A stretch of DNA of 64,000 bases from Candidatus Adlerbacteria bacterium (GTDB taxonomy: Bacteria > Patescibacteriota > Minisyncoccia > Phycocordibacterales > SBAW01): assembly GCA_029288895.1 (NCBI GenBank), contig JARIGK010000004.1, forward strand, positions 77,621-141,620. The letters are read 5' to 3'. Shown piece by piece: positions 8,089-60,638 of this stretch. The translations under genes and the position numbers were made by a program. Every line of letters starts with the position of its first letter. Positions within the stretch are counted from its first letter, which is position 1. Below the pieces are notes generated by a model. The model was given only the letters and a program-made list of their open reading frames with translations. It had not been told where the DNA came from and ran no database searches.

Positions 8089-9621
8089 TTAGCGGGCAAA
8101 CTCTATCGCTCTGCTTTCACGAATGACGTTTACTTTGACTTCGCCCGGATATTTGAGTTCGTTTTCGATGCGGTTAGCGATGTTGCGAGCAAGCTCGCGT
8201 GCTTGGAAGTCCGTCATTTCGTCTGGTTTGACGAAGACGCGTACTTCGCGGCCAGCGGAGATTGCGTAGCATTTCTCGACGCCAGGGAAGGAGGTTGCAA
8301 TTTCTTCTATATCGCCCAAGCGCTTCAAGTACTGCTCGACGCTGTCGCGGCGGGCACCTGGGCGGCCGCCTGAAATTGCGTCCGCAACCTGCACGATGAT
8401 CGATTCCACCGTTTCGTACGGGTACTCTTCGTGGTGCGCCTGCATTGCCTTGACGACTTCTTCTGAAACGCCAAACTTCTGCAAGATGCGGCGGCCGATT
8501 TCCACATGGGTACCGGTGACTTCGTGGTCGAGCGCTTTGCCAATGTCGTGGAGGAGGGCGCCTGCTTTTGCAACCTGGACGTTTGCGCCCATTTCCTCGG
8601 CGATCATGCCGGCGATATGAGCCATTTCCGTTGAGTGCTGCAAGACTGACTGGCCAAATGACGTGCGGAAGTGGAGGCGGCCCAAGATCATCATGAGACG
8701 TGGGTCCAAGTTAAGGACGCCCGTTTCAAAGCAGGCAGCTTCGGCCTTTTCTTTGATGATCTTAGTGACATCGGCCTTTGCCTTTTCGACGTGCTCTTCG
8801 ATCTTTGCTGGCTGGATGCGACCGTCCAAGATCAAGTTTTCAAGCGCCATGCGCGCCACGGCGCGGCGAAGCGGGTCGAACGATGAGAGGACGATCGAGC
8901 CTGGTGTGTCGTCGATGATAACTTCAACGCCCGATGCGCGTTCAAACGCTTTGATGTTGCGCCCTTCTTTGCCGATGATTTTGCCTTTGATTTCGTCGTT
9001 CGGGATAGTAACCGCAGTTGCCATCGTGTCTGCAGCAACCGAGTTGCCGAGACGGTGGATAGCAGTTGTGAGGATTTCTTTTGCACGGCGCTCGACGCGT
9101 TCCATGCCGTCGCGTTCAAGCTTGGCAACGCGGACCATCAAATCTTCGCTCGCTTCTTTTTCAAGCTCTGAAAAAAGCTGTTCTTTTGCTTGGTCTTTGG
9201 TAAGGCCTGCAACGCGCGCAAGTTCCGAGGTGCGCTCGGAAAGGAGGGCCTGCGCCTTTTCTTTGAGCGCGGCAACTTCTTCGATGCGCGCTTTCACAGC
9301 AACAATTTCAGCATCAAGCTCGGCTTGTTTTTTGTCGAGCTGCTCCTCGCGTTTAAAGACACGGTCTTCGGCGCGAGTAATTTTCTCTTCCTTTTCCCTG
9401 AGGTCTGCGTCGGCTTGGGCAAGTTTTTGCTTCGCTTCCTCCTCTGCTTTTTCAGTTACAGCTTTAGCCTCAACTTGCGCATTGAGTAAACTTTGCTGTA
9501 TTTCTAACTCGAGAGAGTTTTTACGAGCGCGTAAAACGAGGAGACGGAGCCAGTAACCGATTCCAGCGCCCAACAGAAGCGCCAAAAGGCCCACGAGGGC
9601 CACTATTGTCTTGGTAACCAT
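8089..9621 (-). CDS. rny: ribonuclease Y
   Basis: N-terminal TM helix, a long coiled-coil, a KH domain ('IIGKEGRNIKAFE') and an HD domain ('HSTEMAHIAGMIAEEMGANVQVAKAGALLHDIGK'). Confidence 0.92.
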   Translation of the reverse strand: MVTKTIVALVGLLALLLGAGIGYWLRLLVLRARKNSLELEIQQSLLNAQVEAKAVTEKAEEEAKQKLAQADADLREKEEKITRAEDRVFKREEQLDKKQAELDAEIVAVKARIEEVAALKEKAQALLSERTSELARVAGLTKDQAKEQLFSELEKEASEDLMVRVAKLERDGMERVERRAKEILTTAIHRLGNSVAADTMATAVTIPNDEIKGKIIGKEGRNIKAFERASGVEVIIDDTPGSIVLSSFDPLRRAVARMALENLILDGRIQPAKIEEHVEKAKADVTKIIKEKAEAACFETGVLNLDPRLMMILGRLHFRTSFGQSVLQHSTEMAHIAGMIAEEMGANVQVAKAGALLHDIGKALDHEVTGTHVEIGRRILQKFGVSEEVVKAMQAHHEEYPYETVESIIVQVADAISGGRPGARRDSVEQYLKRLGDIEEIATSFPGVEKCYAISAGREVRVFVKPDEMTDFQARELARNIANRIENELKYPGEVKVNVIRESRAIEFAR

Positions 9622-9715
9622 AAAAAGTTGAAATATTCATATAAGTGAAACGCACACCCTTACAGTAGCAGGGGTGTGCGTTTGCAGCAACTAAAGATGG
9701 TGCCCGGAGGCAGGC

Positions 9716-10360
9716 CTATTTTTTAGCCGGAGTTTCGGGGATTGTGGCACCCTTGCTCGTGAAGATGTCGTCGATGATGCCGTACTTTTTAGCCTCATCT
9801 GCTGACATAAAGTAGTCGCGCTCGACGTCCTTCTCGATCTTCGAGAGAGTCTGGCCGGTTGCCTTCGAGAGGATCTTATTGAGGCGCTCGCGGGTAGCTA
9901 AAATGTGCCGGGCGGTGATTTCGATATCAGTTGCCTGGCCCTGCGCGCCGCCCCATGGCTGGTGGATCATCACTTCGGCGTTGGGGAGTGCAAAGCGCTT
10001 ACCTTTTGCACCTGCGGCCAAGATAATTGCTGCGGCCGATGCTGCCATACCAACGCAGACAGTCGCGACATCTGGTTTGATGTGGTTCATCGTGTCGAGC
10101 ATTGCCAAACCAGCAGACACCGAGCCGCCAGGGGAGTTGATGTAGAGCTGGATGTCCTTCTTTGGATCTTCCGATGCCAAGAACAGAAGCTGGGCGATAA
10201 CCAAGTTTGCGGTGTGGTCTTCTATCGGCCCCGAGAGGAAGATAATCCGGTCTTTAAGCAGACGCGAATAAATATCGAACGCACGTTCGCCGTACGGGCT
10301 CTTTTCAATAACCATCGGCACGAGCTGGTTGCGGATGTCGTATTTTTTGAGATGTTCCAT
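9716..10360 (-). CDS. clpP: ATP-dependent Clp protease proteolytic subunit
   Basis: '[18 protein letters not shown]...[32 protein letters not shown]' shows the canonical ClpP Ser-His-Asp context. Confidence 0.95.
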
Positions 10361-12225: not shown

Positions 12226-13428
12226 TTACTCGACCGCGATATTCTCGTCGGTTGCTGCTTCGTCCGCAGGAACTTCGCCTTGTTCATCTGCGATGGTGTC
12301 GCCGCGGGTCGACTGGATGTCGATGCGCCAGCCGGTCAACTTGGCTGCCAAACGGACGTTCTGCCCACCGCGGCCAATTGCCAAGGACTGCTGGTCTTCT
12401 GCGACTTTAATTGATGCTTTGTGTTCTGCCTCGTCCAAATCAACTGAGGTAATGCGTGCTGGCGAGAGAGCCTCTTCGATAAATGCCTTTGGATCCTCGT
12501 TCCACTCGATGATGTCGATCTTTTCGCCGCCAAGTTCCGACGTCACCGTCGAAACACGAACGCCGCGCTGGCCAACGAGCGAGCCGACTGGGTCAACATG
12601 CGGGTCTGTGGATGCCACCGCGACCTTCGAGCGCGAACCTGCTTCGCGAGCGATTGCTTTAAAGACAACGGTGCCGTGTGCTGCTTCTGGCGCTTCCATT
12701 TCGAAGAGCTTTGCCAAAAACTGTGGGTTTGCACGCGAAAGGCGGAGGTAAATACCGCGAGGTGATTCTTCTACTTGGTAGAGCAATGCGCGGATGCGCT
12801 CGCCTTGGCGGTAGCGTTCGCCTGGAATTTGTTCGTCGTACGGCAAGATGCCGGTTGCGCGGCCGAGGTCCACATAAATATTGCCGCGTTCCATGCGCTG
12901 CACGGTGCCAGTGACAATAGAACCTGCGCGCTGGCCAAATTCTGCAACAACAGACACCTTTTCTGCTTCGCGGATCTTCTGGATGATGACCTGTTTTGCC
13001 GTTTGTGCTGCGATGCGGCCGTAGTCGTCCTTCATTTCAAGCGGGAAGACGAGCTCGTCGCCAACCTTTGCGTCGCGCTTGATAAACTTTGCGTCTTCGA
13101 TAGTGATGTGCTGCTCGGGGTTAAAGCGGGGGAGCAAGAGGATAGGGTTGCCTTCCTCGTCGTACTGCTGTTCCTGCACTTCTTCCTCTGCGCCTTCTTC
13201 GACAAAGCGGACGGTGGTGTCATCAACCACTTCTTTTACTTGAGAAAATTCGGTCGAGCCGCTGTCCATGTCGAGGGTGGCACGGATAATCTGCCCGCGT
13301 TTTGCGTACTCTTTTTTATATGCAGTTGCGAGTGCAGCCTCGATTGCTTCGATGACTTTTGCACGGGGGATACCGCGCTCCTCTTCGAGCTCGCCGAGCA
13401 CTGAATTCATTACTTTGAGGTCAAACAT
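12226..13428 (-). CDS. nusA: transcription termination/antitermination factor NusA
   Basis: NusA N-terminal domain, an S1 domain and two KH domains ('GRGGQNVRLAAKLTGWRIDI'). Confidence 0.92.
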   Translation of the reverse strand: MFDLKVMNSVLGELEEERGIPRAKVIEAIEAALATAYKKEYAKRGQIIRATLDMDSGSTEFSQVKEVVDDTTVRFVEEGAEEEVQEQQYDEEGNPILLLPRFNPEQHITIEDAKFIKRDAKVGDELVFPLEMKDDYGRIAAQTAKQVIIQKIREAEKVSVVAEFGQRAGSIVTGTVQRMERGNIYVDLGRATGILPYDEQIPGERYRQGERIRALLYQVEESPRGIYLRLSRANPQFLAKLFEMEAPEAAHGTVVFKAIAREAGSRSKVAVASTDPHVDPVGSLVGQRGVRVSTVTSELGGEKIDIIEWNEDPKAFIEEALSPARITSVDLDEAEHKASIKVAEDQQSLAIGRGGQNVRLAAKLTGWRIDIQSTRGDTIADEQGEVPADEAATDENIAVE

Positions 13429-13520
13429 AAGGGTTTAGTTAGTTTGTTTAAAAGGAGAACCGCCCTCTCGGGGCGGTTTCCAGATATCCACACTGTACTC
13501 CTCATATATACTGTAGTCAA

Positions 13521-14297
13521 GTGAAGCGGGATATGCGGCTCTATATAACGGTAGGTGCAGGGCTTATAGCCTCGGGGCTTTTGGCATGGGCCTCCTTCTA
13601 TATATATACGGGGAAGGGGTGGCTCGTACTTGAGCGCAAAGAAACCGTGGCGGATTTTTACTTTAACCGCGGCCTCTACTATTTTAACGGCAAAGCCTAT
13701 AACCTTTCTGTTGCAGAACATGCATTTGAGCAGGCGCTGGCGCACGCCGGTGGCCCATACCCATACGCGCACTACGAGCTTGGCCGCATCTATTTTATCC
13801 ATGGCAATTTCTCGTCTGCGTTGGCAGAAATGGATATGGAGCTTGGGGCATACCCCGACCACGCAAAAGCCCACTATATGAAAGGTCTCATCTATGGGTA
13901 TCGAAAACAATACATCCAGGCCGAGCACGAGTTTATTGCGTTTAATGCGGCCGTGCCACGGCAGTGGGCTGGATACAACGATTTGGCGTGGGTTTATTTC
14001 TCTGAAGGTGCGTATGCCGATTCAGCACGTGCTGCACAACAAGGGCTTGCTGTCGTACCGGGTAACCCCTGGCTCCAAAATTCGTACGCAGTTGCAGAAC
14101 TTAACCTGGGTAAGTACAAAGAGGCAGAACTATATTTCACAAAATCGTATGATGCATTTATGGCGATGAGCGAAGAAGAGTGGGGACGGTCATACCCAGG
14201 GAACGATCCTGCACAATACGCATCAGGGCTCGAGCAGATTCGTACTGCTGTTGCGCACAACCTTACGCTTGTCCACAGTAAACTCGGGGAACAGTAG
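13521..14297 (+). CDS. membrane-anchored TPR-repeat protein
   Basis: N-terminal TM helix 'LYITVGAGLIASGLLAWASFYIY' followed by TPR-like repeats (multiple 'A..Y..G..Y...G.Y..A' blocks). Confidence 0.55.
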   Translation: MKRDMRLYITVGAGLIASGLLAWASFYIYTGKGWLVLERKETVADFYFNRGLYYFNGKAYNLSVAEHAFEQALAHAGGPYPYAHYELGRIYFIHGNFSSALAEMDMELGAYPDHAKAHYMKGLIYGYRKQYIQAEHEFIAFNAAVPRQWAGYNDLAWVYFSEGAYADSARAAQQGLAVVPGNPWLQNSYAVAELNLGKYKEAELYFTKSYDAFMAMSEEEWGRSYPGNDPAQYASGLEQIRTAVAHNLTLVHSKLGEQ

Positions 14298-14322
14298 GCC
14301 CAGTGCTACACTAAATTCACAT

Positions 14323-15198
14323 ATGAAGCAGATCTTGAATGCAGATCGCGTTCGTATAGCTGGAACGTCTCTCGCTGTGTTGGCTCTCCTTGCAGGGGCG
14401 CATTTTTTTGCTGACGCTCGCTCGTCATCTGTTGAAGTCGGGTTTGCGTCATTGTCGCCAAATGGTACTGCTGGGGGGAGTATTATCCCCGCATCGTGCA
14501 GCTCTTCATTCGATTCTGGCGATGTCCAATCATGCACACGTACCAACTCGTGCGGACAATCAAACACAGGAGTTACCACCGATTGTTCGGGGACGTGCTC
14601 TGTAAGTGCTCCGGCCGAATCAGGCTGCCCACAGCCACCAACTGTCTATATATGCACTGGCGCAAACTGTACGCCGACAAGCAACTCGACTGTTACCGTC
14701 ATTGCGGGGTCGGCCGTCACTGTTAAATGGGTATGCCCATCGCCGAACACGTCGGTGTCCGGTACAAGTAACCCTGTAAATAGCGGCTTTTCATTCTCTG
14801 GCGGAGCCTTGCAAGGCACGAAAACTGCGACGATTAACCAGAGCAGTACATTTACGGTGGCCTGCGATCAAACTGGTACCCAAGCAAGCGTGACTGCGAC
14901 TGCAATTAACCCAACAGCATCTGTCACGGCAACGCCATCCCGCGTCCACTCGGGCCAAACTTCGACCATTAGCTGGTATGCATCAGGTGTCACAAGCTGC
15001 ACCTTGAATGGTCCGGGCACGGTAGATGGTCCGGTAACGGCAACGGGCGGCAACATTGCATCTCAAAGCAGCCCTCGTCAAAAAGGTACCGCAGCAATCA
15101 CAGGGCAGAGCACCTACACACTCACGTGCCAGACAAGCGGTGGGCCAAAAACCGCAAGCGTGGTCGTCAACTTAGTCCCTGTTGAGATAGAACTCTAA
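14323..15198 (+). CDS. secreted/surface Ser/Thr/Cys-rich protein with Ig-like repeats
   Basis: Internal ATG 14323 gives a signal-anchor 'RIAGTSLAVLALLAGAHFFA'. The remainder is Ser/Thr/Cys-rich with repeated 'TVT..S...TC' beta-strand-like units. The stop overlaps the start of the downstream ATPase (TAAATG). Confidence 0.55.
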   Translation: MKQILNADRVRIAGTSLAVLALLAGAHFFADARSSSVEVGFASLSPNGTAGGSIIPASCSSSFDSGDVQSCTRTNSCGQSNTGVTTDCSGTCSVSAPAESGCPQPPTVYICTGANCTPTSNSTVTVIAGSAVTVKWVCPSPNTSVSGTSNPVNSGFSFSGGALQGTKTATINQSSTFTVACDQTGTQASVTATAINPTASVTATPSRVHSGQTSTISWYASGVTSCTLNGPGTVDGPVTATGGNIASQSSPRQKGTAAITGQSTYTLTCQTSGGPKTASVVVNLVPVEIEL

Positions 15199-16938
15199 AT
15201 GGTAGTCGACGAGCGCCGGCTCAAAGACTTTTTATTTGATACGGGCGTTCTACCCCGAGGCGAACTTGATCGCGCCCATACCCTTGCGCGCGAGCGTGAT
15301 ACGTCGCTTGCCGACACGCTTGTTGCCACGGGTATGCTCCGCGATGATGATGTGCGCCGCGCACTTGCGCATGTGCTTGGCGTGCCGTTTGTCATCATTT
15401 CAAAAGATATGCTCGTACCAGAAGCTCTGTCGCTCTTGCCCGAGCCGTTTTCGCGCGCGCGCAACGCGGTGGTGCTCTCAGTACAGGGAAATGCGGTAGA
15501 AGTCGCGCTGCTCGATATAGACGACCTTAGGGCTGTTCAAGAACATGTTGGCGCTGCCCGCGTGGTGCGCCCGCGTTTGACGAATCGCGAATCATTGATG
15601 CGCGCATTGCTTTACTATCAGAAACATTTGAAAGATACGTTTGGTGCTGCGTTGGCTGCCGAATGCGCTCGCATTGGCGCGGCTTCATCGATGAGCGATG
15701 CGTCGAGCCATGACGCGCTCGTGCGCGCTGCCGACTTATTGTTGTCGCACGCACTGCATCAGCAGGCACATGCCGTCCATATCGAACAGGGCGAGCGGGG
15801 GTTGCGCGTACGCTATCGCACACAGGGCGGCCTCTTTGACGCGATGACACTGCCGGGCGCTGCCGCCATGCCGCTTATCGCACGCTTTAAATTGCTCGCA
15901 CAACTGCCGCTCCAAAGCGACACGCCAGGGCTTGGGCGATTTAAAATTTCGCACACCGATGGCTCAGTTGTTGGCATTACCGTCTCGACGGTGCCGCAGA
16001 TAACAGAAGCGGGTACAGGAGAAAAACTTGTGCTGGCCTTTGTGCACGAAGGGAGCGGCCGCCGCGGCCTTTCGCTTGCGGCACTATCCTGGACGCCGTC
16101 GAATACGAGAGAACTCCGCCGCGCACTGTCGGCCCGTTCGGGGCTCGTGCTTGTTTGTGGCGACGAAGGCGCAGGGAAGACAACACTGTTGTATACGTTG
16201 ATGGATCAGCTCGCGAGCGGGGAGAAAAGTTTAGTAAGTGTCGAGTCCCAGGTGAGCTATATCGTCCCTGCAGTGGCGCAGATGGAAGTTAACGAGGGCC
16301 TTGGCCTTACGCCAGCGTCGTGCCTGCGCGCACAACTGCGCCAAGATGCGGACGTCATTATGGTGGACTGCGCACTCGACGACGAAGTTGCGACGCTTGC
16401 CGCAAACGCTGCCAATAGAGGCGCGCTTGTACTTATGAGCGTCCCCGCTTCATCTGCCGCAGAAGGCGTCGAGTATCTGCAGGAGCTTGGTGTGCCCTCG
16501 GCGTTGCTCGCATCAACACTTGTAGCGTCTATTGCAACGGCGACTGTACCGCGTCTGTGCCCTCACGTCCGAAATGAACATCGCCTCTCGCGTACAGAGC
16601 AGTCAGAACTTGAAGAGCGCATTGATATCAAACGCGTGTTGGATGAATTAAAGGCCGAACACATGCTCGGCGCACACACGGCATGGAAAGAAGTGCAGAT
16701 GTTTGATGCATCACCGTGTGCAGAATGCGAAGGTGGCTACAAGGGGACGCTCGGCCTCCAAGAGGTGTTGCCCGTAACGCGCACGCTCAAAGACGCGATC
16801 CGAGGCGGGGCAGGTGCAGAGGAATTGGCCGCGCAGGCGAAGGAAGAAGGGATGATGACAATTGCCGACGACGCCCTGTATAAAGCGGTGCAAGGCAGTG
16901 TTAGTGCCGAGGTACTCCTTCTCGTAGCAGGCCGCTAG
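15199..16938 (+). CDS. GspE/PilB-family secretion ATPase homologue with divergent catalytic motifs
   Basis: T2SSE_N-like N-terminal domain. Walker A 'GDEGAGKTT' and a C-terminal tetracysteine Zn motif (CPHV...C...CAEC) are present. Canonical Walker B 'DIIMVGEIRD' is replaced by 'DVIMVDCALDD' and the His-box 'TLHTN' by 'SVPAS'. The gene is GC-rich. Confidence 0.7.
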   Translation: MVVDERRLKDFLFDTGVLPRGELDRAHTLARERDTSLADTLVATGMLRDDDVRRALAHVLGVPFVIISKDMLVPEALSLLPEPFSRARNAVVLSVQGNAVEVALLDIDDLRAVQEHVGAARVVRPRLTNRESLMRALLYYQKHLKDTFGAALAAECARIGAASSMSDASSHDALVRAADLLLSHALHQQAHAVHIEQGERGLRVRYRTQGGLFDAMTLPGAAAMPLIARFKLLAQLPLQSDTPGLGRFKISHTDGSVVGITVSTVPQITEAGTGEKLVLAFVHEGSGRRGLSLAALSWTPSNTRELRRALSARSGLVLVCGDEGAGKTTLLYTLMDQLASGEKSLVSVESQVSYIVPAVAQMEVNEGLGLTPASCLRAQLRQDADVIMVDCALDDEVATLAANAANRGALVLMSVPASSAAEGVEYLQELGVPSALLASTLVASIATATVPRLCPHVRNEHRLSRTEQSELEERIDIKRVLDELKAEHMLGAHTAWKEVQMFDASPCAECEGGYKGTLGLQEVLPVTRTLKDAIRGGAGAEELAAQAKEEGMMTIADDALYKAVQGSVSAEVLLLVAGR

Positions 16939-16959
16939 CGAACGCGGTATATTTGAGTA

Positions 16960-17742
16960 GTGAAAAAGCGCATCATTGCCGGGAACTGGAAGCTGTATAT
17001 AGAAGAGGTAGATGCGGCAAAGAAGCTCGCGTCGACATTGAAGCGTGCGCGCAGCAAAACTCCGAATATTGATTTGATTGTGTTGCCATCGGCGACACTG
17101 TTGGGCACGGTTGCCGGGGCGCTTAAAGGATCGAACATTGCCGTGGGCGCCCAAGCAATACAACCATTCCAAAGTGGCGCGTATACCGGCTACGTGTCGC
17201 CTGCTGCCGTAAAGGAAGTGGGTGCGACGTGGGCACTCGTAGGGCACAGCGAGCGCCGCATGCAAACAATTGATGGCGTGCCTGCTGCGGGCGAAAGTGA
17301 CGAGCAGGTTGCCGCACAAGTACGCGCCGCTCACGAAGCGGGGCTCAAAGTAATGCTCTGTATTGGTGAGGTAGAGCGCGACCCGGGCGGCGCGCATTTT
17401 TCTGTTATCGAACGCCAACTTTCATCGGCACTTTCACCGCTCGCAAAAACAAATATCAAATTGGCGATTGCCTACGAACCCGTGTGGGCAATAGGGAAGA
17501 CGTCGGCAGATGCAATGAAGCCAGCTGATTTAGAAGAGATGGTGATTTTTATCCGCCGCACGCTGACAGAGTTGTTTGACCGCGCGGCTGCTGCAAAAAT
17601 CCCGATTTTGTACGGAGGCTCGGTCGATGCAAGTAACGCGCACGAGTTGCTTACGCAGGGTGGTGTTGTTGGGTTTTTGGTGGGGCGTGCAAGTACGGAT
17701 AGCAAATCATGTATAGAACTTTTGAAGGTATGCCAGGGATAA
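16960..17742 (+). CDS. tpiA: triosephosphate isomerase
   Basis: GTG start. 'IAGNWKL', 'VGHSERR' and 'ILYGGSV' TIM signatures. Confidence 0.9.
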   Translation: MKKRIIAGNWKLYIEEVDAAKKLASTLKRARSKTPNIDLIVLPSATLLGTVAGALKGSNIAVGAQAIQPFQSGAYTGYVSPAAVKEVGATWALVGHSERRMQTIDGVPAAGESDEQVAAQVRAAHEAGLKVMLCIGEVERDPGGAHFSVIERQLSSALSPLAKTNIKLAIAYEPVWAIGKTSADAMKPADLEEMVIFIRRTLTELFDRAAAAKIPILYGGSVDASNAHELLTQGGVVGFLVGRASTDSKSCIELLKVCQG

Positions 17743-18821
17743 AAAATATCAAAGACGCAGATGTCCACGGTAAGCGCGTGCTTGTACATACAGACTTTGA
17801 TGTCCCGTTGAAGAATGGCGCCGTCGCAGACGACTTCCGCATTCGCGCAGCATTGCCAACGCTGCAACTTTTGAAGGAGAGAGGTGCGACGCAGATTGTC
17901 ATTATTTCGAAACTTGGTCGCCCAGGAGGAAAGGTAGTGGAGGAATTGCGCATGGCGCCTATTGCGGCACATCTTGCGACACTTATTGATATGTCGAATA
18001 TCGAGGTGCGGGAAAATTTGCGCTTTGACCCGCGCGAGGAAGCAAGCGACGAAAGTTATGCGAAAGAGTTAGCGACGTTGGGAGACATCTTTGTAAATGA
18101 AGCATTTGCCGACAGCCATCGCGCACATGCATCGATTGTTGGGATACCGAAATTCCTCCCGAGCTACGCGGGGCTGCGTTTTGCCGAAGAGGTTGTGCGC
18201 GTGAGCGAGGCGCTCGTGCCACCTCAAAAATCACTCGCAATCATTGGTGGTGCAAAATTTGAAACAAAACAGCCGTTGCTTGAGGCGCTTGTATCGCGCT
18301 ACGGCACAATATTCCTTGGCGGCGCACTCGCAAATGATTTGCTCAAGAGCCGCGGTATGCCTGTTGGGGCGTCACTTATTTCTGAAACGCCTATACCGGC
18401 ATCACTCGCAGAAAATTTCCATATCCAAGCGCCTGTTGATTTAGTGGTGCGAACGGGGGAGGGCGCTGCTCGCTCAGCGAAGACGGGTGATGTGCATCAC
18501 GACGAACGCATCGTCGACATTGGCGAAAATACCGCAGCCCAGTGGGGTGAACAAATAAAAAGCGCAGAGTTTGTGCTGTGGAACGGCCCCGTCGGAATTT
18601 ATGAGGATAGTTTTGTTGGAGGAACTGATGTGTTGGCAGGGGCACTTGCAAGCTCGCCGTGCCGCGCAATTGTCGGAGGCGGTGATACAGCCGCGGCGCT
18701 GTCGAAATTCTCGTTCGACCCTGCACGTGTCTTTATTTCGACAGGCGGCGGCGCGATGCTCGAGTTGTTGGCAAAAGGCACACTGCCCGGCATCGAAGCA
18801 CTTACATCTTCGAAGGAATAA
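17730..18821 (+). CDS. pgk: phosphoglycerate kinase
   Basis: 'KRVLVHTDFDVPL' and 'ISKLGRP' PGK N-domain motifs. Start placed at Met 17730 to minimise overlap with tpiA. Confidence 0.88.
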   Translation: MPGIKNIKDADVHGKRVLVHTDFDVPLKNGAVADDFRIRAALPTLQLLKERGATQIVIISKLGRPGGKVVEELRMAPIAAHLATLIDMSNIEVRENLRFDPREEASDESYAKELATLGDIFVNEAFADSHRAHASIVGIPKFLPSYAGLRFAEEVVRVSEALVPPQKSLAIIGGAKFETKQPLLEALVSRYGTIFLGGALANDLLKSRGMPVGASLISETPIPASLAENFHIQAPVDLVVRTGEGAARSAKTGDVHHDERIVDIGENTAAQWGEQIKSAEFVLWNGPVGIYEDSFVGGTDVLAGALASSPCRAIVGGGDTAAALSKFSFDPARVFISTGGGAMLELLAKGTLPGIEALTSSKE

Positions 18822-19110
18822 GGTGGACGTGCACATGGGGCACGTCTTTGCCCACAATAGAGAGGTGGATATAGTCAGCGCTATATTCGCTTTTTAGTTT
18901 TTGCGCGAGCATTTTTGCACGGCGGAAGAGATTGTCGGAAAGGTCGTCCGGCAGATCCTGAAACCATTGGTGGTGTGCTTTAGGGATGAGGAGGGTGTGG
19001 CCAGGTGCGTTAGGGTGGATGTCGAGGAATGCGATGAATTCGTCATCCTCAAATGTCTTTTGTGCTGGGATTTCGCCCGCGACAATCTTGCAGAAAATAC
19101 AGTTTTCCAT
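18802..19110 (-). CDS. HIT family protein (histidine triad)
   Basis: 'CIFCKIVAGEIP' and the triad 'HVHVHLIP'. Confidence 0.88.
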   Translation of the reverse strand: MENCIFCKIVAGEIPAQKTFEDDEFIAFLDIHPNAPGHTLLIPKAHHQWFQDLPDDLSDNLFRRAKMLAQKLKSEYSADYIHLSIVGKDVPHVHVHLIPSKM

Positions 19111-23558: not shown

Positions 23559-24941
23559 GTGAAGCCGCTCTATAGAAACATACTGCTTGCTCTCGGGTTT
23601 GTATGCATCTTTGCTGCGCGCGGTTTGATATATCAAACCAATTGGAACAGTCAGACACTGTTGCAGCTGGTGCATACAATTGACGCAGAAAAGGGGAAGA
23701 AGGTTGTGGTGGTGGGGAAGGTGGCAGACGACCCCGACAGGCGTGACACAACGCTGCATGTGAATGTTGATGTCGAAACTGTTGATGGCGTTCCAAAAAA
23801 CGGCACGCTTATCGCATTCTTCCCGCCCGAAACAAAACTGGAATATGGCCAACATGTTGTGGCGAAGGGGACGCTGCGCTTGCCCGATGCATTTGAAACA
23901 GAAACTGGCGTCTTTGATTACCCGCACTACCTACAAGCCCAAGGAATTTCTGCGATGCTTACAAGTGCGCAGCTTTCTTCGTCGTCATCCGTACACATTT
24001 CTTTGTTTGGAGTGTTGTATGGCATCAAACATATGTTTGATGCATCGCTCGAGAAAATTTTTATCCCGCCGCATGGTGCACTCATCGACGGCGTCTTGCT
24101 TGGCGAACGCCGCGGCATCCCTGACGATTTGCAACGCGCATTTATTGTCTCGAGCTTGGTGCACATCGTTGTCCTTTCGGGCCACGTACTCACTTTGGTG
24201 GCCGACGCCATTATGCGCACGCTTGGCTTTTTGCCGCGCAAATACAAATATCCGCTGGGCGCGCTTATGATCGTGCTCTTTGTATTGATGGTTGGTGCCT
24301 CGTCGACGGCAGTCCGTGCGGGCATTATGGCGCTCATTGGTTTGATAGGCCGCGTTGCACACCGGCACGCGGACGCACTGCGTTCGTTATTCATCGCAGC
24401 TGCCATAATGATTCTCTGGAACCCACCCGTCGTATTGTGGGACACATCATTTATTTTGAGCATGTTGGCTGCGTTTGGGTTGATCACGCTTTCGCCACTC
24501 GTAGAGACATGGCTACACTGGGTGCCAGAAAAGTTCGAGCTGCGCGCGATCGCTACATCAACCTTGTCTGTCGAAATTTTTATTGTGCCCGCGCTTCTGT
24601 ACTTCACTGGAACATTTTCTGTTTTTGCATTGCCCGCGAACATACTCGCATTGCCGGTGTTGCCGTGGGCAATGTTGTTTGGATTTTTGGCAGGTGCGCT
24701 AAACTTGCTACCCGGTGTTGCTGGTGTAGTGCTCGCATTTGTGCCAGCGTTTTTTGCGCAACTACTTCTGCGCTGGATCATCTATATTGCCACCACGATA
24801 CAAAGTATCCCGCACTCGAGTTACCTCGTGCGCGGGTTTCCTTTGTGGGCGATGGCCCTGTGTCATGTGCCGCTTATTGCGGTTTCCAGCTGGACAATGC
24901 GGCGAATCGCTCCTCGACGAGCGACCAGTTCAAATTCTTAA
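23559..24941 (+). CDS. comEC: ComEC/Rec2 family competence protein (DNA internalisation channel), short form without C-terminal MBL domain
   Basis: N-terminal TM plus OB-like DUF4131 region, then a polytopic Competence domain ('LLGERRGIPDDLQRAFIVSSLVHIVVLSGHVLTLVA'). Confidence 0.75.
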   Translation: MKPLYRNILLALGFVCIFAARGLIYQTNWNSQTLLQLVHTIDAEKGKKVVVVGKVADDPDRRDTTLHVNVDVETVDGVPKNGTLIAFFPPETKLEYGQHVVAKGTLRLPDAFETETGVFDYPHYLQAQGISAMLTSAQLSSSSSVHISLFGVLYGIKHMFDASLEKIFIPPHGALIDGVLLGERRGIPDDLQRAFIVSSLVHIVVLSGHVLTLVADAIMRTLGFLPRKYKYPLGALMIVLFVLMVGASSTAVRAGIMALIGLIGRVAHRHADALRSLFIAAAIMILWNPPVVLWDTSFILSMLAAFGLITLSPLVETWLHWVPEKFELRAIATSTLSVEIFIVPALLYFTGTFSVFALPANILALPVLPWAMLFGFLAGALNLLPGVAGVVLAFVPAFFAQLLLRWIIYIATTIQSIPHSSYLVRGFPLWAMALCHVPLIAVSSWTMRRIAPRRATSSNS

Positions 24942-28671: not shown

Positions 28672-28802
28672 AGGGTGTATCTGTATGAGAATAGCGGATT
28701 ATTGGCAAAAGTTACAGAAAATGTTCTTTTGCTTTTTTTGAGCGAGAGGAGTATTGTATGGGCAACGCGCTTTCGCGCTATTTTTAATCCTCATTATTGT
28801 AT

Positions 28803-30956
28803 ATGGCAGACACCAGAGACTATCCATTGGAGCGCGTGCGTAACTTCGGCATCATTGCGCACATCGACGCGGGCAAGACCACGACGTCGGAACGCATCCT
28901 CTACTACACCGGTTCACAGCACAAAATCGGCGAAGTGCACGAAGGCGAAACCACCACCGACTGGATGGAGCAGGAGCGCGAACGCGGCATCACTATTACC
29001 GCGGCGGCTATCACCTGCTTCTGGAGCAAATCAAACGAGCCAGACAAGAAAGACCCTGCTAAGAAGACCCGCTTCAACATCATCGACACTCCAGGCCACA
29101 TCGACTTTACCGTCGAAGTGAAGCGCTCAATGCGCGTCTTGGACGGCGCAGTCTGTGTCTTCGACGGCGTTGCAGGCGTCGAACCTCAGTCTGAAACAAA
29201 CTGGCGCTACGCCGACGAGGCAAACGTGCCGCGCATCTGCTTCATCAACAAGCTCGACCGCATGGGCGCGTCGTTCGAAAAGTCGTACCAGTCAATTCTT
29301 GACCGCCTTTCTCCAAAAGCAGTCCGCATGCAGTTGCCGATTGGTGCAGAAGAAGCGCTCGAAGGCGTCGTCGACCTCCTGTCGATGAAGGCATACAAGA
29401 ACGAAGGTGCGATGGGCGACGAAATCGTCGAAATGCCATTCCCTGAAGCGATGCGCGCAGAAGCTGAAAAGTACCGCGGCCAGCTTATCGAAAAGATTGT
29501 CGAAAACGACGAGGCGCTTATGACCTCATACCTTGATGGCCAAGAGCCCTCGATGGAACAGTTGAAAGCAACGCTTCGCAAAGCAGTTATCGCAAACCAG
29601 ATCTTCCCGGTATACACCGGCTCGGCACTCAAAAACAAAGGCGTGCAGCACGTGCTCGACGCAGTCGTCGACTACTTGCCATCTCCGCTCGACATGCCGG
29701 CGGTGAAGGGTACCGACCCACGCACGGGTGATGAAATCGAACGCCATGCATCGGACTCGGAGCCGTTCTGCGCGCTCGCATTCAAACTCCAAGCAGACCC
29801 ATTCGTCGGCCAGCTTACCTTCTTCCGCGTGTACTCGGGTTCGATCGAAGCAGGCTCATACATTTACAACGCAACAACAGGCCAGAAAGAACGCCTCGGC
29901 CGCATCGTGCGCTTGCAGGCAAACCAGCGCGAAGAAGTAAAGAAAGTCTACGCCGGCGAAATCGCTGCAGCCGTAGGTCTCAAAGACACGAAGACCTCGC
30001 ACACGCTCTGCGATGAAGCAAATCCAATCGTTTTGGAGCAGATCAAATTCCCAGAACCAGTTATCTCGCTCCGCATCGAGCCGAAGACCAAAGCAGACCA
30101 GGAGAAGATGGGTATCGCACTCAAGAAACTTTCTGACGAAGACCCAACCTTCCGCGTGACCTCTGACCCAGAAACTGCCGAGACACTTATCTCAGGCATG
30201 GGCGAACTCCATTTGGAAATCTTGGTTGACCGCATGAAGCGCGAGTTCAACGTCGAAGCAAACGTCGGTACGCCGCAGGTTGCCTACCGCGAAACGATCC
30301 TCCAGGAGGCAGAAGCAGAAGGTAAGTACATCAAGCAGACGGGCGGTAAGGGCCAGTACGGCCACGTGCGCCTGCGCTTGAAGCCGCTGCAGCCGCTCGA
30401 AGAAGGCGCAAAGATTCCGAAGAACGTAACGCGCGAAGAGCACTTCGAATTCATCAACAGCATCAAGGGCGGTGTCGTCCCGCAAGAATTTATTGCCCCG
30501 GTTGAAAAGGGCATCCGCGAAGCAATGGAACGTGGCTTTGTTGCAGGCTTCAAGATGGTTGATATTTCGGCCGAGCTCTACGACGGTTCGTACCACGATG
30601 TCGACTCCTCAGAAATCGCCTTCAAGATTGCAGCATCGATGGGCTTCCAGGAAGCTGCACAAAAAGCGCGCGCCGTGTTGCTCGAGCCGATCATGAAAGT
30701 GGAAGTTGTCGTCCCAGAAAAGTTCATGGGTGACGTCACTGGCTCGCTTTCAGGTAAGCGCGGTGCAATCGAAGGCATGGAAGAACGCGGTTTGGCCCGC
30801 GCCGTTAAGGCAAAAGTACCGCTGTCTGAAATGTTCGGCTACACCACACAGCTCCGCTCGATGACCGAAGGCCGCGGTTCGTTCACTATGGAATTCGACC
30901 ACTATGAAGTCGTTCCTCCGAACGTCGCAGCTGATATCATCGCAAAGCGCAAATAA
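28803..30956 (+). CDS. fusA: elongation factor G
   Basis: '[24 protein letters not shown]' G1 motif, 'DTPGHIDF' and 'NKLDR'. Five-domain length. ATG 28803 is preferred over the upstream TTG. Confidence 0.96.
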
Positions 30957-30998: not shown

Positions 30999-32006
30999 AT
31001 GAAGAAATTAACCGCGGCGCTTTTTGCTTTATTGGTATTGATATCTGCATCTCCCGTATCGGCAAATAGTTACATTGCTCCAACCTCGTGTCCGCAATTT
31101 TCTGTAAATCTCTACATGGGTGCGCGTGATGCGGCCATGGGTGGGCAGGTGAGCCAACTCCAGCAATTTCTCAATCAGCGTTATGGCAACCAGCTTGTCA
31201 CCGGCTACTTTGGTGTGATGACCGCGGCGAATGTATCGCGCTTGCAGCAAGAGCTCGGTATTGCTCGCGTGGGCGGCGTGGGCCCTCTGACGCGCGCAGC
31301 AATCGCAAAACTTTGCAGCACAAGCGGTACGCCCACGCCGACAGCAGGCAGCCTCTCTGCGTACCCATCGTCGGGCACGGCACCTTTGGCTGTGAACTTT
31401 ACCGCGACTGTACCGGACACGAACCAATACATCATCGACTTTGGTGATGGTGCGAACAGCGGCCCTATTGGTGCAGGCGTCGTGGCACACACATACCAAA
31501 ACCCTGGCACGTACACCGCGAACCTCTCGCGCTATATCTCGTGCCTCTACGCGACACCAGTGCACTGCATGATCGCCGTGATGCCGATTGCGTCAGCGAC
31601 GGTCACTGTTGCGGCACCTCAAACACAAACAAATACGCTCCAAGTCACAAGCCCTGCGGCGGGGCAGATATATACACGCGGCAGCCAGATGAACATCAGC
31701 TGGAGCGGCCTCGTGCGCGAAACATTTGCCTACGAGCCACATGCAAGCATTGTCGACCTCTACACGGCAGCAGGTACTAAAGTGGGTACCATCGCAATCA
31801 CGAATGATTTGAAAGGTAGCTATGACTGGCATATCCCTGGCTTTCCGCAAACTATGATGTGCACGATGCAATATCCAAATGCACTCTGCGGCACCAATGT
31901 GCAGGGCCAGTACTACATCCAAGTCACCGCGGTTGTGGGCAATGGCTTTGGCACAAACGAAACAGTCATTGGTACAGCGCAAAGCGGCGTCTTCGGAGTT
32001 CAATAA
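30999..32006 (+). CDS. secreted protein: signal peptide + peptidoglycan-binding (PG_binding_1) + PKD domain
   Basis: Signal peptide 'MKKLTAALFALLVLISASPVSA'. 'QLQQFLNQRYGNQLVTGYFGVMTAANVSRLQQELGIARVGGVGPLTRAAI' is PGBD-like. 'PLAVNFTATV...IIDFGDG...HTYQNPGTYTANLS' is a PKD domain. Confidence 0.65.
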   Translation: MKKLTAALFALLVLISASPVSANSYIAPTSCPQFSVNLYMGARDAAMGGQVSQLQQFLNQRYGNQLVTGYFGVMTAANVSRLQQELGIARVGGVGPLTRAAIAKLCSTSGTPTPTAGSLSAYPSSGTAPLAVNFTATVPDTNQYIIDFGDGANSGPIGAGVVAHTYQNPGTYTANLSRYISCLYATPVHCMIAVMPIASATVTVAAPQTQTNTLQVTSPAAGQIYTRGSQMNISWSGLVRETFAYEPHASIVDLYTAAGTKVGTIAITNDLKGSYDWHIPGFPQTMMCTMQYPNALCGTNVQGQYYIQVTAVVGNGFGTNETVIGTAQSGVFGVQ

Positions 32007-32065
32007 ACAAAAAAGATATCCCCACACACCGCTTGTCGGAAGCGGGGAAGAGAATACACTAGTAA

Positions 32066-32112
32066 GTAACAGGGCATCCCGGAAACGGGAGGCCCTTTCT
32101 CTTTTATTTTTG
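32066..32112 (+). terminator. rho-independent terminator (gggcatcccg-gaaa-cgggaggccc + tttctcttttatttttg)
   Basis: Strong GC hairpin followed by a long T-rich tract. Confidence 0.7.
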
Positions 32113-32125
32113 TAACTTTCTATCG

Positions 32126-34237: not shown

Positions 34238-35431
34238 ATGGCAACATTTGAACGTGCAAAGCCGCACATGAACGTCGGCACCATCGGCCACGTCGACCAC
34301 GGAAAGACGACCTTGACGGCGTCTATCCTCCACACCCTCGACATGCTGAAAGCAGAGGGCTACAGCGCCCGCGTCGAAGGCGTTGACGGTATCGACAACG
34401 CGCCGGAAGAAAAGGCTCGCGGTATCACCATCGCGCTCCACCACTCGGAATACGAGTCGCCGAAGCGCCACTACGCGCACATCGACGCTCCGGGCCACGC
34501 AGACTACATCAAGAACATGATCACCGGCGCAGCCCAGATGGACGGCGCAGTGCTCGTGGTTGCAGCAACTGACGGCGTTATGCCTCAGACTCGCGAACAC
34601 ATCCTCCTCGCAAAGCAGGTTGGTGTGCCGAAGATCATCTGCTTCCTCAACAAGTGCGACATGGTTGACGACAAGGATCTTATCGACCTCGTCGAAGAAG
34701 AAGTAAAGGAAGCTCTTGCAAAGCAGGGCTACGCTGATGCTCCGGTTATCCGCGGCTCAGGCCTCAAGGCTCTCGAGAGCACTGACATCAACAATGAGTG
34801 GTCACAGAAGGTCAAAGACCTCATCGACACCATGGACAGCTACTATCCGGACCCAGTCCGCGAAACTGATAAGCCGTTCCTCATGCCTATCGAAGACATC
34901 TTCTCGATCGAAGGCCGCGGTACCGTGGTTACGGGCCGTATCGAACGCGGTGTAGTTAAGGTTGGTGAAGAAGTCGAAATCGTCGGCTTGGAAGCTACAA
35001 CTAAGACCACCATCACTGGTATCGAAATGTTCAACAAGCAGTTGGACACTGGTATGGCAGGCGACAACGCGGGCATCTTGCTCCGCGGTACAAAGAAGGA
35101 AGACATCCACCGCGGCCAGGTTTTGGCTAAGGCTGGCTCTGTGACTCCTCACACTGAGTTCGAAGGCGAGGTATACATCTTGACCAAGGACGAAGGTGGC
35201 CGCCACACGCCGTTCTTCTCTGGCTACAAGCCACAGTTCTATATCCGCACCACTGACGTTACGGGCGAAGTGACGCTTGCTGCAGGTACTGAAATGGTTA
35301 TGCCGGGCGACACCGTCACCTTTAAGGTGAAGTTGGTAGCGCCGGTTGCGCTTGAAGAGAAGACTCGTTTCGCAGTCCGCGAAGGCGGTAAGACCGTCGG
35401 CGCAGGCGTCGTTACGAAGATTGTTGCGTAA
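34238..35431 (+). CDS. tuf: elongation factor Tu
   Basis: '[12 protein letters not shown]', 'DAPGHADY' and 'NKCD' G-motifs. 397 aa. Confidence 0.97.
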
Positions 35432-59234: not shown

Positions 59235-59254
59235 GGCCTATATACTGGTAGGTA

Positions 59255-60637: not shown

Positions 60638-60638
60638 T

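What the first reader, a model, noticed from the sequence alone, without database searches (positions are those of the whole stretch)
14323..16938. GspE/PilB-like ATPase with substituted Walker B and His-box, translationally coupled to a Ser/Thr/Cys-rich secreted protein, in a GC-rich segment with no other secretion genes
The 579-aa protein has an unmistakable T2SSE_N-type N-terminal domain, an intact Walker A (GDEGAGKTT) and the C-terminal tetracysteine Zn motif of secretion/pilus ATPases. Where the catalytic Glu is expected (…IIMVGEIRD) it reads VIMVDCALDD. The His-box TLHTN is replaced by SVPAS. This suggests either a non-hydrolysing regulatory paralogue or a highly divergent enzyme. The upstream gene, whose stop overlaps the ATPase start (TAAATG), encodes a signal-anchored, Cys-rich, Ig-repeat-like surface protein that is not a type IV pilin. 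A TPR membrane protein precedes it. No platform (GspF/PilC), pilin or secretin genes are nearby. The segment appears much more GC-rich than flanking genes, so lateral acquisition is possible.
Basis: partly seen in the sequence, partly recalled or inferred. Interest (0 to 1): 0.6.

Follow-up and report, generated by a model that had tools for sequence, protein, structure and literature searches.

The report
Dead PilB motor left after pilus-operon loss
This gene is the leftover type IV pilus assembly motor (PilB) of a small candidate-phyla-radiation bacterium whose neighbouring pilus genes were deleted; it has lost almost all catalytic residues, yet a whole clade keeps it under purifying selection, so it is probably a nucleotide-binding pseudo-enzyme with a new, unknown job.

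Summary
ORF 15199-16938 is a 579-aa GspE/PilB-fold protein with an intact Walker A. Its catalytic Glu and both His-box histidines are substituted. Only 1 of 7 catalytic residues remains.

The interpretation needs correcting. This is neither a lateral acquisition nor an extra paralogue. In related Paceibacteria (83 loci) the slot between nusA and tpiA-pgk holds pilB-pilC plus three pilin-like genes, and every full-length pilB there has intact motifs. In the window and eight related loci the same slot holds only the degenerate ATPase, with no pilC or pilin remnant. The gene is therefore the positional orthologue of pilB after operon decay.

The protein evolves much faster than canonical PilB: 34-49% identity where NusA is 80-93%. 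It is nevertheless under purifying selection (dN/dS about 0.1 in a related pair), and its fold is predicted with confidence. A Walker-B Asp appears where the Asp-box Glu is lost, which suggests that nucleotide-Mg binding is kept.

The extra GC sits at first codon positions (Ala-rich) and is shared by all degenerate orthologues. The upstream TPR and Cys-rich Ig-like proteins are additions found only in a subclade.

I could not test whether pilus genes survive elsewhere in the genome.

The parts
12226..13428 (-). nusA, divergently oriented. It is the left boundary of the conserved slot.
   Evidence: tblastn with Kaiserbacteria NusA gives 69% identity. The same neighbour is present in all degenerate and canonical loci.
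13521..14297 (+). TPR-repeat protein with one N-terminal hydrophobic helix. The repeats probably face outside the cell. It is a subclade-specific addition.
   Evidence: Pfam TPR_2, TPR_16 and TPR_19 hits. Orthologues are 61% identical in L001 and 54% in L004. It is absent from L005, L006, L008, L009, L010 and the canonical loci.
14323..15198 (+). Signal-anchored Ser/Thr/Cys-rich protein with a Cys-rich N-terminal part and two Ig-like beta-sandwich domains. Its stop codon abuts the ATPase start codon.
   Evidence: No Pfam or NCBIfam hit. The family has 10 members. The alignment shows invariant Cys, Trp and Tyr positions. The AF2 model has pLDDT 75 overall and above 85 over most of residues 130-285; Foldseek matches tandem Ig-superfamily domains at E about 2e-5. 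Junction sequence ctcTAAATGgta.
15199..16938 (+). PilB-derived pseudo-ATPase, 579 aa. Domains: N1/MshEN, N2, and a C-terminal RecA-like domain.
   Evidence: Pfam T2SSE 203.9 bits. TIGR02538 PilB 245.9 bits, below the 675.65 cut-off. AF2 pLDDT 89. Foldseek top hits are GspE 4pht, PilF 5oiu and PilB 5zfr/5tsh at E 1e-35 to 1e-32.
16159..16185 (+). Walker A P-loop GDEGAGKTT (residues 321-329), intact.
   Evidence: Lys is kept in 115 of 170 degenerate family members.
16240..16257 (+). Asp-box remnant VESQVS (residues 348-353). The first Glu is kept; the Mg-coordinating Glu (E357 of G. metallireducens PilB) is Ser.
   Evidence: Gap-free alignment block with 6olj. Residue roles are taken from PMC5424180. 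Family census.
16354..16383 (+). Walker B region VIMVDCALDD (residues 386-395). The usual Gly is Asp (D390) and the catalytic Glu is Cys (C391).
   Evidence: D390 co-varies with loss of the Asp-box Glu across the family.
16432..16452 (+). His-box remnant LMSVPAS (residues 412-418). H420 of G. metallireducens PilB is Pro416. Just upstream, H413 is Ala409.
16558..16728 (+). Remnant of the Zn-binding motif: C454-P-H-V457, then C507-A-E-C510. Three of four cysteines remain.
16960..18821 (+). tpiA (16960-17742) and pgk (17709-18821), co-directional and starting 21 nt after the ATPase stop. They form the right boundary of the slot.
   Evidence: tblastn. The same order is seen in every related locus. 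No terminator-like site lies in the intergenic gaps.

Best explanation
Identity (shown). The gene is the vertically inherited, positional orthologue of pilB, the type IV pilus extension ATPase of Paceibacteria. The ancestral arrangement is nusA(-) | pilB pilC pilin-like pilin-like ~475-aa gene | tpiA pgk. In the clade that contains the window organism (Adlerbacteria-like), pilC and the pilin-like genes were cleanly deleted and only pilB stayed.

State of the protein (shown). It has lost both arginine fingers, the Asp-box Mg ligand, the catalytic Glu and both His-box histidines. It keeps the PilB fold, the P-loop and the N1 domain. It evolves several-fold faster than canonical PilB but remains under purifying selection.

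Biochemistry (inferred). It still binds a nucleotide. Mg is probably held by the newly acquired classical Walker-B Asp (D390), which replaces the lost Asp-box Glu. It cannot hydrolyse ATP or run the inter-subunit closing cycle that drives PilC.

Role (speculative). It acts as a static or nucleotide-state-dependent scaffold or signalling protein, perhaps through its N1 domain. This would resemble the ATPase-independent signalling role reported for Myxococcus PilB.

Neighbours. It is probably co-transcribed with tpiA-pgk. In the window's subclade it is probably also co-transcribed with two later-added envelope proteins, a TPR protein and a Cys-rich Ig-like protein.
For: Synteny:
- Nine degenerate loci (window, L001, L004, L005, L006, L008, L009, L010, L013) have nusA | ATPase | tpiA pgk with no pilC.
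- Three canonical loci (L007, L011 Kaiserbacteria, L012 Yonathbacteria) have pilB-pilC-pilins in the same slot.
- Of 80 species-representative genomes found with PilC, all but 2 are compatible with that order. All 71 full-length adjacent PilB have every motif intact.
- No locus has two T2SSE genes. No pilC or pilin remnant occurs in the degenerate loci at E<=1.

Catalytic residues:
- Mapped through gap-free blocks to G. metallireducens PilB, with residue roles from PMC5424180. The window protein keeps 1 of 7.
- Among 170 family members that lack the H420-equivalent His, none keeps more than 5 of 7, and the lost subsets differ between members.

Evolutionary rate:
- Canonical PilB is 62-69% identical where NusA is 57-63%. 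The degenerate ATPase is 34-49% identical where NusA is 80-93%.
- Identity in the catalytic core falls from 80% among canonical proteins to 42% among degenerate ones. N1b (residues 57-145) becomes the best-conserved domain.

Selection: dN/dS is 0.10-0.12 for the L008/L013 pair, against 0.07-0.10 for tpiA and 0.08-0.10 for pgk.

Fold: AF2 pLDDT 89; Foldseek to GspE/PilF/PilB at E about 1e-35.

Mg-ligand swap: 45 members have the Walker-B Asp with the Asp-box Glu lost, 102 have the canonical arrangement, 5 have both and 19 have neither.

Phylogeny: on a NusA NJ tree the main degenerate clade has 100/100 bootstrap support and is nested among canonical lineages.

Precedent: an ATP-hydrolysis-deficient PilB variant in M. 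xanthus still regulates exopolysaccharide production without pili (PMC5544727).
Against: - Nucleotide binding, oligomeric state and partners are inferred, not measured.
- dN/dS was measured on a related pair, not on the window gene. The window's closest relative is only 61% identical, so synonymous sites would be saturated.
- I could not examine the rest of the genome. A complete type IV pilus system with its own active PilB may exist elsewhere, which would change the functional reading.
- The Mg-ligand covariation is not corrected for phylogeny and may reflect very few events.
- The c-di-GMP motif model scores 17.8 bits against a cut-off of 38, so a c-di-GMP sensor role is not supported. Canonical relatives are also below the cut-off where the motif was detected, at 17.9 and 33.7 bits.
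Confidence: 0.72

Rival explanations
1. Regulatory subunit of a type IV pilus or competence machine encoded elsewhere in the genome. The dead PilB would bind PilM or PilC, or mix into hexamers of an active PilB, and so modulate pilus assembly.
For: The N1b domain is the best-conserved part of the degenerate proteins; in GspE the N-terminal domain contacts GspL (PDB 4pht, top fold hit). The Walker A is kept. comEC lies 6.6 kb downstream. Other pilus genes such as pilM/N/O, pilD and pilT are not in the slot even in canonical lineages, so they lie elsewhere and could have survived.
Against: The slot's own pilC and pilin genes are gone without remnants. No second T2SSE, T2SSF or prepilin gene occurs in the 64 kb. 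Loss of both arginine fingers and the His box removes the residues that couple neighbouring subunits, which makes mixed hexamers less plausible. The comEC linkage is equally present in canonical lineages, so it is not informative.
Confidence: 0.2
2. Still an active but highly divergent ATPase. It would use the classical Walker-B Asp (D390) and other residues for catalysis and power some unknown export or assembly process for the upstream surface protein.
For: The P-loop is intact and a classical hhhhD Walker B has been re-created. The gene abuts that of a secreted Cys-rich protein.
Against: The catalytic Glu position is C, A, S, T or P in the sublineage with the Walker-B Asp. Both arginine fingers and both histidines are absent. 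Sublineages lose different residues, so no alternative catalytic set is conserved. Some members lack even the Walker A Lys; L005 reads ASEDAKHLQS. There is no membrane platform gene. The Cys-rich partner is missing from most degenerate loci.
Confidence: 0.06
3. A functionless relic: a decaying gene that has not yet been deleted, or one kept only because its DNA carries signals for expressing tpiA-pgk.
For: There is a large rate acceleration and a compositional drift (Ala 13.6% against 7%, Lys 2.8% against 8.1%). Some members have N-terminal truncations, for example L006 and L008. Catalytic residues have been lost piecemeal.
Against: The family is broad: 170 aligned domains from the two protein searches lack the H420-equivalent His, and most of these proteins are full length. 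dN/dS is about 0.1, equal to neighbouring glycolytic genes. The fold is predicted with confidence. Several positions are nearly invariant in the degenerate proteins, including E349, D385 and T328. The adjacent pilC and pilin genes were deleted cleanly, which shows that deletion is not hindered at this locus.
Confidence: 0.05
4. A laterally acquired GC-rich segment.
For: The ATPase gene is the GC-richest 1740-bp stretch in the window, at 0.581 against a mean of 0.524 (z about 2.5).
Against: The same gene sits in the same slot in nine loci whose NusA tree is congruent. GC3 (0.59) matches nusA (0.60), and the excess is in GC1. All seven degenerate orthologues compared are 1-6 points above their locus GC, whereas canonical PilB are about 1 point below. 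The TPR and Cys-rich genes are not GC-rich.
Confidence: 0.01

Closest known systems
Type IVa pilus extension ATPase PilB / type II secretion ATPase GspE (G. metallireducens PilB 5TSG/5TSH, T. thermophilus PilF 6F8L/5OIU, Vibrio GspE 4PHT/1P9R)
   Same: Same three-domain architecture and fold (Foldseek E about 1e-35). Sequence homology over the whole length (phmmer E 2.5e-61 to PilF). Walker A is present. It occupies the same genomic slot as the canonical Paceibacteria pilB.
   Different: It lacks both arginine fingers, the Mg-binding Asp-box Glu, the catalytic Glu and both His-box histidines, and keeps only 3 of 4 Zn cysteines. No pilC or pilin genes lie beside it. It scores 246 bits on TIGR02538, against 538-550 for canonical Paceibacteria PilB and a cut-off of 675.65.
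Signalling role of Myxococcus xanthus PilB (Black et al. 2017, PMC5544727)
   Same: It is a precedent for a PilB protein acting without ATP hydrolysis or pilus assembly. A hydrolysis-deficient variant still supports exopolysaccharide regulation, and the nucleotide state sets the signalling conformation.
   Different: In Myxococcus the same protein is also a working motor, and the effect was shown with engineered mutants. Here the loss of catalysis is natural, fixed in a clade, and accompanied by loss of the pilus genes at the locus. No downstream pathway is known.
MshE / MshEN c-di-GMP-binding N-terminal domain
   Same: The Pfam MshEN domain is present (32.4 bits, cut-off 23.1). The first helix pair resembles the RLGxxLLxxGLL...L...L..Q motif.
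   Different: The c-di-GMP motif model NF053729 scores 17.8 bits against a cut-off of 38. Some relatives (L006, L008) lack these helices altogether.
Non-hydrolysing P-loop partners of secretion-type motors, such as the archaellum protein ArlH/FlaH (from my own knowledge, not tested here)
   Same: The concept is the same: a RecA-like protein that binds but does not turn over ATP and works as a nucleotide-dependent adaptor.
   Different: It belongs to a different family (KaiC-like, not PilB-like) and works next to an active motor. No active motor is known here.

Membership tests
Pfam PF00437 T2SSE (secretion/pilus ATPase superfamily) | Profile match above the gathering score | tested here: met
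   203.9 bits against 24.9, covering residues 169-570.
Pfam PF00437 T2SSE (secretion/pilus ATPase superfamily) | GspE/PilB three-dimensional fold | tested here: met
   AF2 pLDDT 89. Foldseek hits 4pht, 5oiu, 5zfr and 5tsh at E 6e-35 to 1e-31.
Functional PilB/GspE extension ATPase (TIGR02538 / TIGR02533 equivalogs) | Equivalog HMM score at or above the curated cut-off | tested here: not met
   245.9 against 675.65 for PilB and 237.5 against 630.25 for GspE. Canonical Paceibacteria PilB score 538-550, also below the cut-off but about twice as high.
Functional PilB/GspE extension ATPase (TIGR02538 / TIGR02533 equivalogs) | Walker A GxxGxGK[ST] | tested here: met
   G321-D-E-G-A-G-K327-T328.
Functional PilB/GspE extension ATPase (TIGR02538 / TIGR02533 equivalogs) | Catalytic Glu after the atypical Walker B (E395 in G. 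metallireducens PilB) | tested here: not met
   Cys391, in a gap-free alignment block.
Functional PilB/GspE extension ATPase (TIGR02538 / TIGR02533 equivalogs) | Asp-box Glu that coordinates Mg (E357 in G. metallireducens PilB) | tested here: not met
   Ser353. The first Asp-box Glu (E349) is kept.
Functional PilB/GspE extension ATPase (TIGR02538 / TIGR02533 equivalogs) | His-box histidines (H413 and H420 in G. metallireducens PilB) | tested here: not met
   Ala409 and Pro416.
Functional PilB/GspE extension ATPase (TIGR02538 / TIGR02533 equivalogs) | Two arginine fingers in the N2 domain (R271 and R286 in G. metallireducens PilB) | tested here: not met
   Thr261 and Ala280.
Functional PilB/GspE extension ATPase (TIGR02538 / TIGR02533 equivalogs) | Tetracysteine Zn site | tested here: inconclusive
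   Three Cys remain (C454, C507, C510), with V457 at the fourth position and H456 adjacent. Canonical PilB at this locus have only two.
Functional PilB/GspE extension ATPase (TIGR02538 / TIGR02533 equivalogs) | Genomic association with the platform protein PilC/GspF and with pilins | tested here: not met
   None in the 64-kb window or in eight related loci.
Functional PilB/GspE extension ATPase (TIGR02538 / TIGR02533 equivalogs) | ATP hydrolysis and hexamer formation | not testable with these tools
   Needs biochemistry.
MshEN c-di-GMP receptor domain | Pfam MshEN domain match | tested here: met
   32.4 bits against 23.1.
MshEN c-di-GMP receptor domain | Tandem c-di-GMP-binding motif (NCBIfam NF053729) | tested here: not met
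   17.8 bits against a cut-off of 38. In relatives where the model was detected it scores 16.6-33.7, also below the cut-off.
Pseudoenzyme (catalytically dead homologue kept by selection) | Clear homology and orthology to an active enzyme | tested here: met
   Same slot as canonical pilB in 83 loci.
Pseudoenzyme (catalytically dead homologue kept by selection) | Loss of residues required for catalysis | tested here: met
   6 of 7 lost.
Pseudoenzyme (catalytically dead homologue kept by selection) | Purifying selection on the coding sequence | tested here: met
   dN/dS 0.10-0.12 in the L008/L013 pair, like tpiA and pgk. Most family members are full-length ORFs. This was measured on relatives, not on the window gene itself.
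Laterally transferred island | Break in conserved synteny together with atypical codon-level composition | tested here: not met
   Synteny is conserved. GC3 is typical and the excess lies in GC1, shared by the orthologues.

The most novel reading that the evidence does not exclude
A whole clade of Paceibacteria, plus a second lineage (L010) that appears to have done so independently, has discarded the pilus platform and pilins but kept PilB as a catalytically dead, nucleotide-binding protein. It has been exapted for a function that no longer involves type IV pili. Its Mg ligand has moved from the Asp box to a re-created classical Walker-B Asp. In the window's subclade it may work with the newly recruited TPR and Cys-rich Ig-like envelope proteins in cell-surface or host-contact biology.
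Probability: 0.3. Interest if true: 0.6.

Novelty: new variant of a known kind. Interest (0 to 1): 0.45.

Why it matters
Type IV pili are regarded as central to how candidate-phyla-radiation bacteria attach to hosts and take up DNA. Genome surveys usually count a 'PilB' annotation as evidence that pili are present.

This result shows that a sizeable clade of Paceibacteria carries a PilB-annotated gene that is a dead motor, sitting in an operon stripped of its platform and pilins. Pilus inference from PilB hits alone will therefore over-call in these lineages.

It is also a natural example of a secretion-type ATPase turning into a pseudoenzyme under continued selection. The apparent relocation of the Mg ligand could be used to separate the nucleotide-binding and signalling role of PilB from its motor role.

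Tried and rejected
- Lateral transfer: rejected on synteny and codon-position GC.
- Misalignment of the catalytic motifs: rejected. The blocks covering residues 301-402 and the His-box region just after them align without gaps to solved PilB. A 35-sequence MAFFT alignment and an HMM alignment of 267 domains agree.
- Extra paralogue next to a canonical copy: rejected for this locus, because no locus has two T2SSE regions.
- Remnants of pilC or pilins in degenerate loci: none found with tblastn at E<=1.
- c-di-GMP sensor: not supported.
- Promoter and terminator scan of 13300-19000: counts are near the shuffled expectation and nothing lies in the intergenic gaps. It was uninformative.
The near match of 324862 and 324867 bp turned out to be two different organisms, one canonical and one degenerate.
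- Organism name from exact look-up of cluster members: no names returned.
- The look-up of encoding contigs for the window's own protein: not on record.
- L001, L002 and L003 carry identical DNA for the orthologue, so they could not be used for dN/dS.
- First bootstrap attempt timed out and was redone with a faster distance.
- Literature searches for a degenerate or pseudo PilB in CPR bacteria found nothing.
- Rfam and tRNA scans of the window: nothing.


Full report
**What is there**

The window comes from a small-genome bacterium of the Patescibacteria (class Paceibacteria, Adlerbacteria-like). Its closest named homologues are from Candidatus Adlerbacteria and Paceibacterota MAGs.

Around the finding the gene order is: rny, clpP, tig, ppa and nusA on the minus strand, then on the plus strand:
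- a TPR protein (13521-14297);
- a Cys-rich protein (14323-15198);
- the ATPase (15199-16938);
- tpiA, pgk, (HIT on the minus strand), recJ, rnhA and comEC.

The Cys-rich gene's TAA is followed directly by the ATPase ATG. The other gaps are 25 and 21 nt, and no terminator-like site lies in them.

**The ATPase**

It matches Pfam T2SSE (203.9 bits) and MshEN (32.4 bits). It reaches only 246 bits on the PilB equivalog model, whose cut-off is 675.65.

phmmer against solved structures aligns it end to end with Thermus PilF and Geobacter PilB. The blocks that contain the catalytic motifs have no gaps.

I used the residue roles described for G. metallireducens PilB (PMC5424180) and the 20-residue tag offset of the 5TSG/6OLJ chains. 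The mapping is:

| G. metallireducens PilB residue | Role | Window protein |
|---|---|---|
| R271 | arginine finger | T261 |
| R286 | arginine finger | A280 |
| Walker A Lys | phosphate binding | K327 (kept) |
| E357 | Asp-box Mg ligand | S353 |
| E395 | catalytic Glu | C391 |
| H413 | His box | A409 |
| H420 | His box | P416 |

One of seven catalytic residues remains. The Zn motif keeps three of four cysteines.

AlphaFold2 with a 35-sequence alignment gives pLDDT 89. Foldseek returns GspE, PilF and PilB at E about 1e-35. The fold is intact.

**It is a family, not a one-off**

Two protein searches gave 231 relatives. In an HMM alignment, 170 domains lack the H420-equivalent His. None of these keeps more than five of the seven residues, and different members have lost different subsets. 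About a third have also lost the Walker A Lys.

Canonical Paceibacteria PilB from the same searches keep all seven.

**The key result is synteny**

Nine loci with a degenerate ATPase all read nusA(-) | (0-2 small variable genes) | ATPase | tpiA | pgk, with no pilC.

Three loci with a canonical PilB (an unnamed Paceibacterota genome, a Kaiserbacteria genome and a Yonathbacteria genome) read nusA(-) | pilB | pilC | ~590-aa pilin-like | ~200-aa pilin-like | ~475-aa gene | tpiA | pgk.

A scan of species-representative genomes with the Kaiserbacteria PilC returned 80 loci. All but two are compatible with that order. All 71 full-length adjacent PilB have Walker A, EDPxE, GE[IVM]R and GH...H intact.

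No locus holds two T2SSE genes. tblastn with PilC and the pilin-like proteins finds no remnant in the degenerate loci or anywhere in the 64-kb window. No prepilin motif occurs in any frame of the window.

The window's ATPase is therefore the positional orthologue of pilB in a lineage that deleted the rest of the operon.

**Evolutionary behaviour**

- Among canonical lineages, PilB is 62-69% identical where NusA is only 57-63%.
- Among the degenerate lineages, NusA is 80-93% identical but the ATPase only 34-49%, which is below tpiA and pgk.
- The catalytic core falls from 80% to 42% mean identity. The N1b domain (residues 57-145) becomes the best-conserved part.
- The one sufficiently close pair I could obtain (L008/L013, 85% identical) gives dN/dS of 0.10-0.12, the same as tpiA (0.07-0.10) and pgk (0.08-0.10).
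- On a NusA NJ tree the main degenerate clade has 100/100 bootstrap support and sits among canonical lineages. L010 joins it in only 3/100 replicates, which suggests a second, independent event. This rests on a single-gene NJ tree and needs caution.

**A detail bearing on mechanism**

PilT-like ATPases have Gly where classical Walker B motifs have the Mg-binding Asp, and the Asp-box Glu takes over Mg coordination (PMC5424180).

In the window protein the Gly is Asp (VIMVD) and the Asp-box Glu is gone. Across 171 degenerate domains the two states are nearly exclusive: 45 are swapped, 102 are canonical, 5 have both and 19 have neither. Fisher's p is 2e-20, uncorrected for phylogeny.

I read this as maintenance of one Mg ligand, and hence of nucleotide-Mg binding, in a protein that cannot hydrolyse. 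This is an inference.

**GC content**

The ATPase is the GC-richest 1740-bp stretch of the window, at 0.581 against a mean of 0.524.
- Its GC3 (0.59) equals that of nusA (0.60).
- The excess is in GC1 (0.70).
- It reflects amino-acid composition: Ala 13.6% against 7.0% in canonical PilB, Lys 2.8% against 8.1%, Ile 2.8% against 8.8%.
- All seven degenerate orthologues examined are 1-6 points above their locus GC, whereas canonical PilB are about 1 point below.

This is drift under changed constraint, not foreign origin.

**The upstream genes**

The Cys-rich protein has a signal anchor, a conserved RSVEVG...SP.G..GG.VPASC segment, a variable Cys-rich insert and two Ig-like sandwiches. Its family has ten members. 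Orthologues sit in the same place in L001 and L004, at 44% and 52% identity.

The TPR protein is likewise conserved only there, at 54-61% identity.

Both proteins are missing from L005, L006, L008, L009, L010 and from the canonical loci. They are late additions to the slot. In L007, the slot upstream of pilB also holds unrelated secreted proteins.

Both are predicted to be extracytoplasmic, while the ATPase is cytoplasmic. No polytopic membrane protein links them, so a direct mechanical coupling is unlikely.

**What it most likely does**

Shown: the orthology, the loss of catalytic residues, the retained fold, purifying selection in relatives, and the absence of pilC and pilins locally.

Inferred: it binds nucleotide but does not hydrolyse it, and it cannot drive PilC.

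Speculative: it serves as a scaffold or nucleotide-state signal. This would be comparable to the hydrolysis-independent regulatory role shown for M. xanthus PilB (PMC5544727), possibly acting through the conserved N1 domain.

**Literature**

CPR surveys treat PilB and PilT as one widespread family and report co-localised pilus genes (PMC6744442; PMC8672522). A recent review of PilB regulation does not mention dead PilB homologues (PMC11656802). Searches for pseudo or degenerate PilB in CPR bacteria returned nothing relevant.

**Limits**

I could not read the rest of any genome of this clade, so I cannot say whether a second, working pilus system exists. dN/dS comes from relatives, not from the window gene. 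Biochemical statements are predictions.

Noticed in passing
window 30999-34120: Two secreted proteins sit between fusA (28797-30956) and tuf (34238-35431), inside the otherwise conserved str operon. One carries PG_binding_1 plus PKD domains; the 664-aa one has a weak PG_binding_1 hit.
   Followed up: no
window 57775-62774: An ECF sigma factor and a DUF5667 protein are followed by a 460-aa membrane ORF and a 725-aa secreted ORF with no family hits. The last has the lowest GC3 among the long ORFs, 0.395.
   Followed up: no
window 23559-24941: comEC (Competence plus DUF4131 domains) lies 6.6 kb downstream of the ATPase. The linkage is conserved in degenerate loci, so the DNA-uptake channel is kept even where the local pilus genes are lost.
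   Followed up: partly
proteins P0128, P0132, P0164, P0166, P0168, P0173 and others: These proteins of about 1000 aa consist of two complete PilB-like ATPase units in tandem, both with intact catalytic motifs. Their origin and context were not examined.
   Followed up: no
L007 10001-11758, L011 4332-6080, L012 10001-11755: Canonical Paceibacteria PilB at this locus keep only two of the four Zn-binding cysteines. The degenerate orthologues keep three or four. Zn-site loss and catalytic loss are therefore decoupled.
   Followed up: partly
L001 9000-9962 (GCA_026397405.1): The public gene call is a 187-aa ORF on the minus strand (9371-9934). The real gene is evidently the 320-aa plus-strand orthologue of the Cys-rich protein, 44% identical to the window's.
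   Followed up: yes
L012 17182-19497: In the Yonathbacteria locus two extra genes sit between the pilin-like genes and tpiA. One has an SLT lytic transglycosylase domain with a weak T4SS_pilin hit, and the other has a weak T4SS_pilin hit.
   Followed up: no
L001 5084-8153: The Adlerbacteria locus has an adenylate/guanylate cyclase-domain gene and an acyltransferase-HAD gene inserted between nusA and the TPR gene. Both are absent from the window.
   Followed up: no
L010 8326-8884: A HicB/HicA toxin-antitoxin pair sits immediately upstream of the independently degenerated ATPase in L010.
   Followed up: no
window 1-64000: ARAGORN finds no tRNA gene and no Rfam family reaches its gathering score anywhere in the 64 kb, although the window includes the large ribosomal-protein operons.
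   Followed up: no
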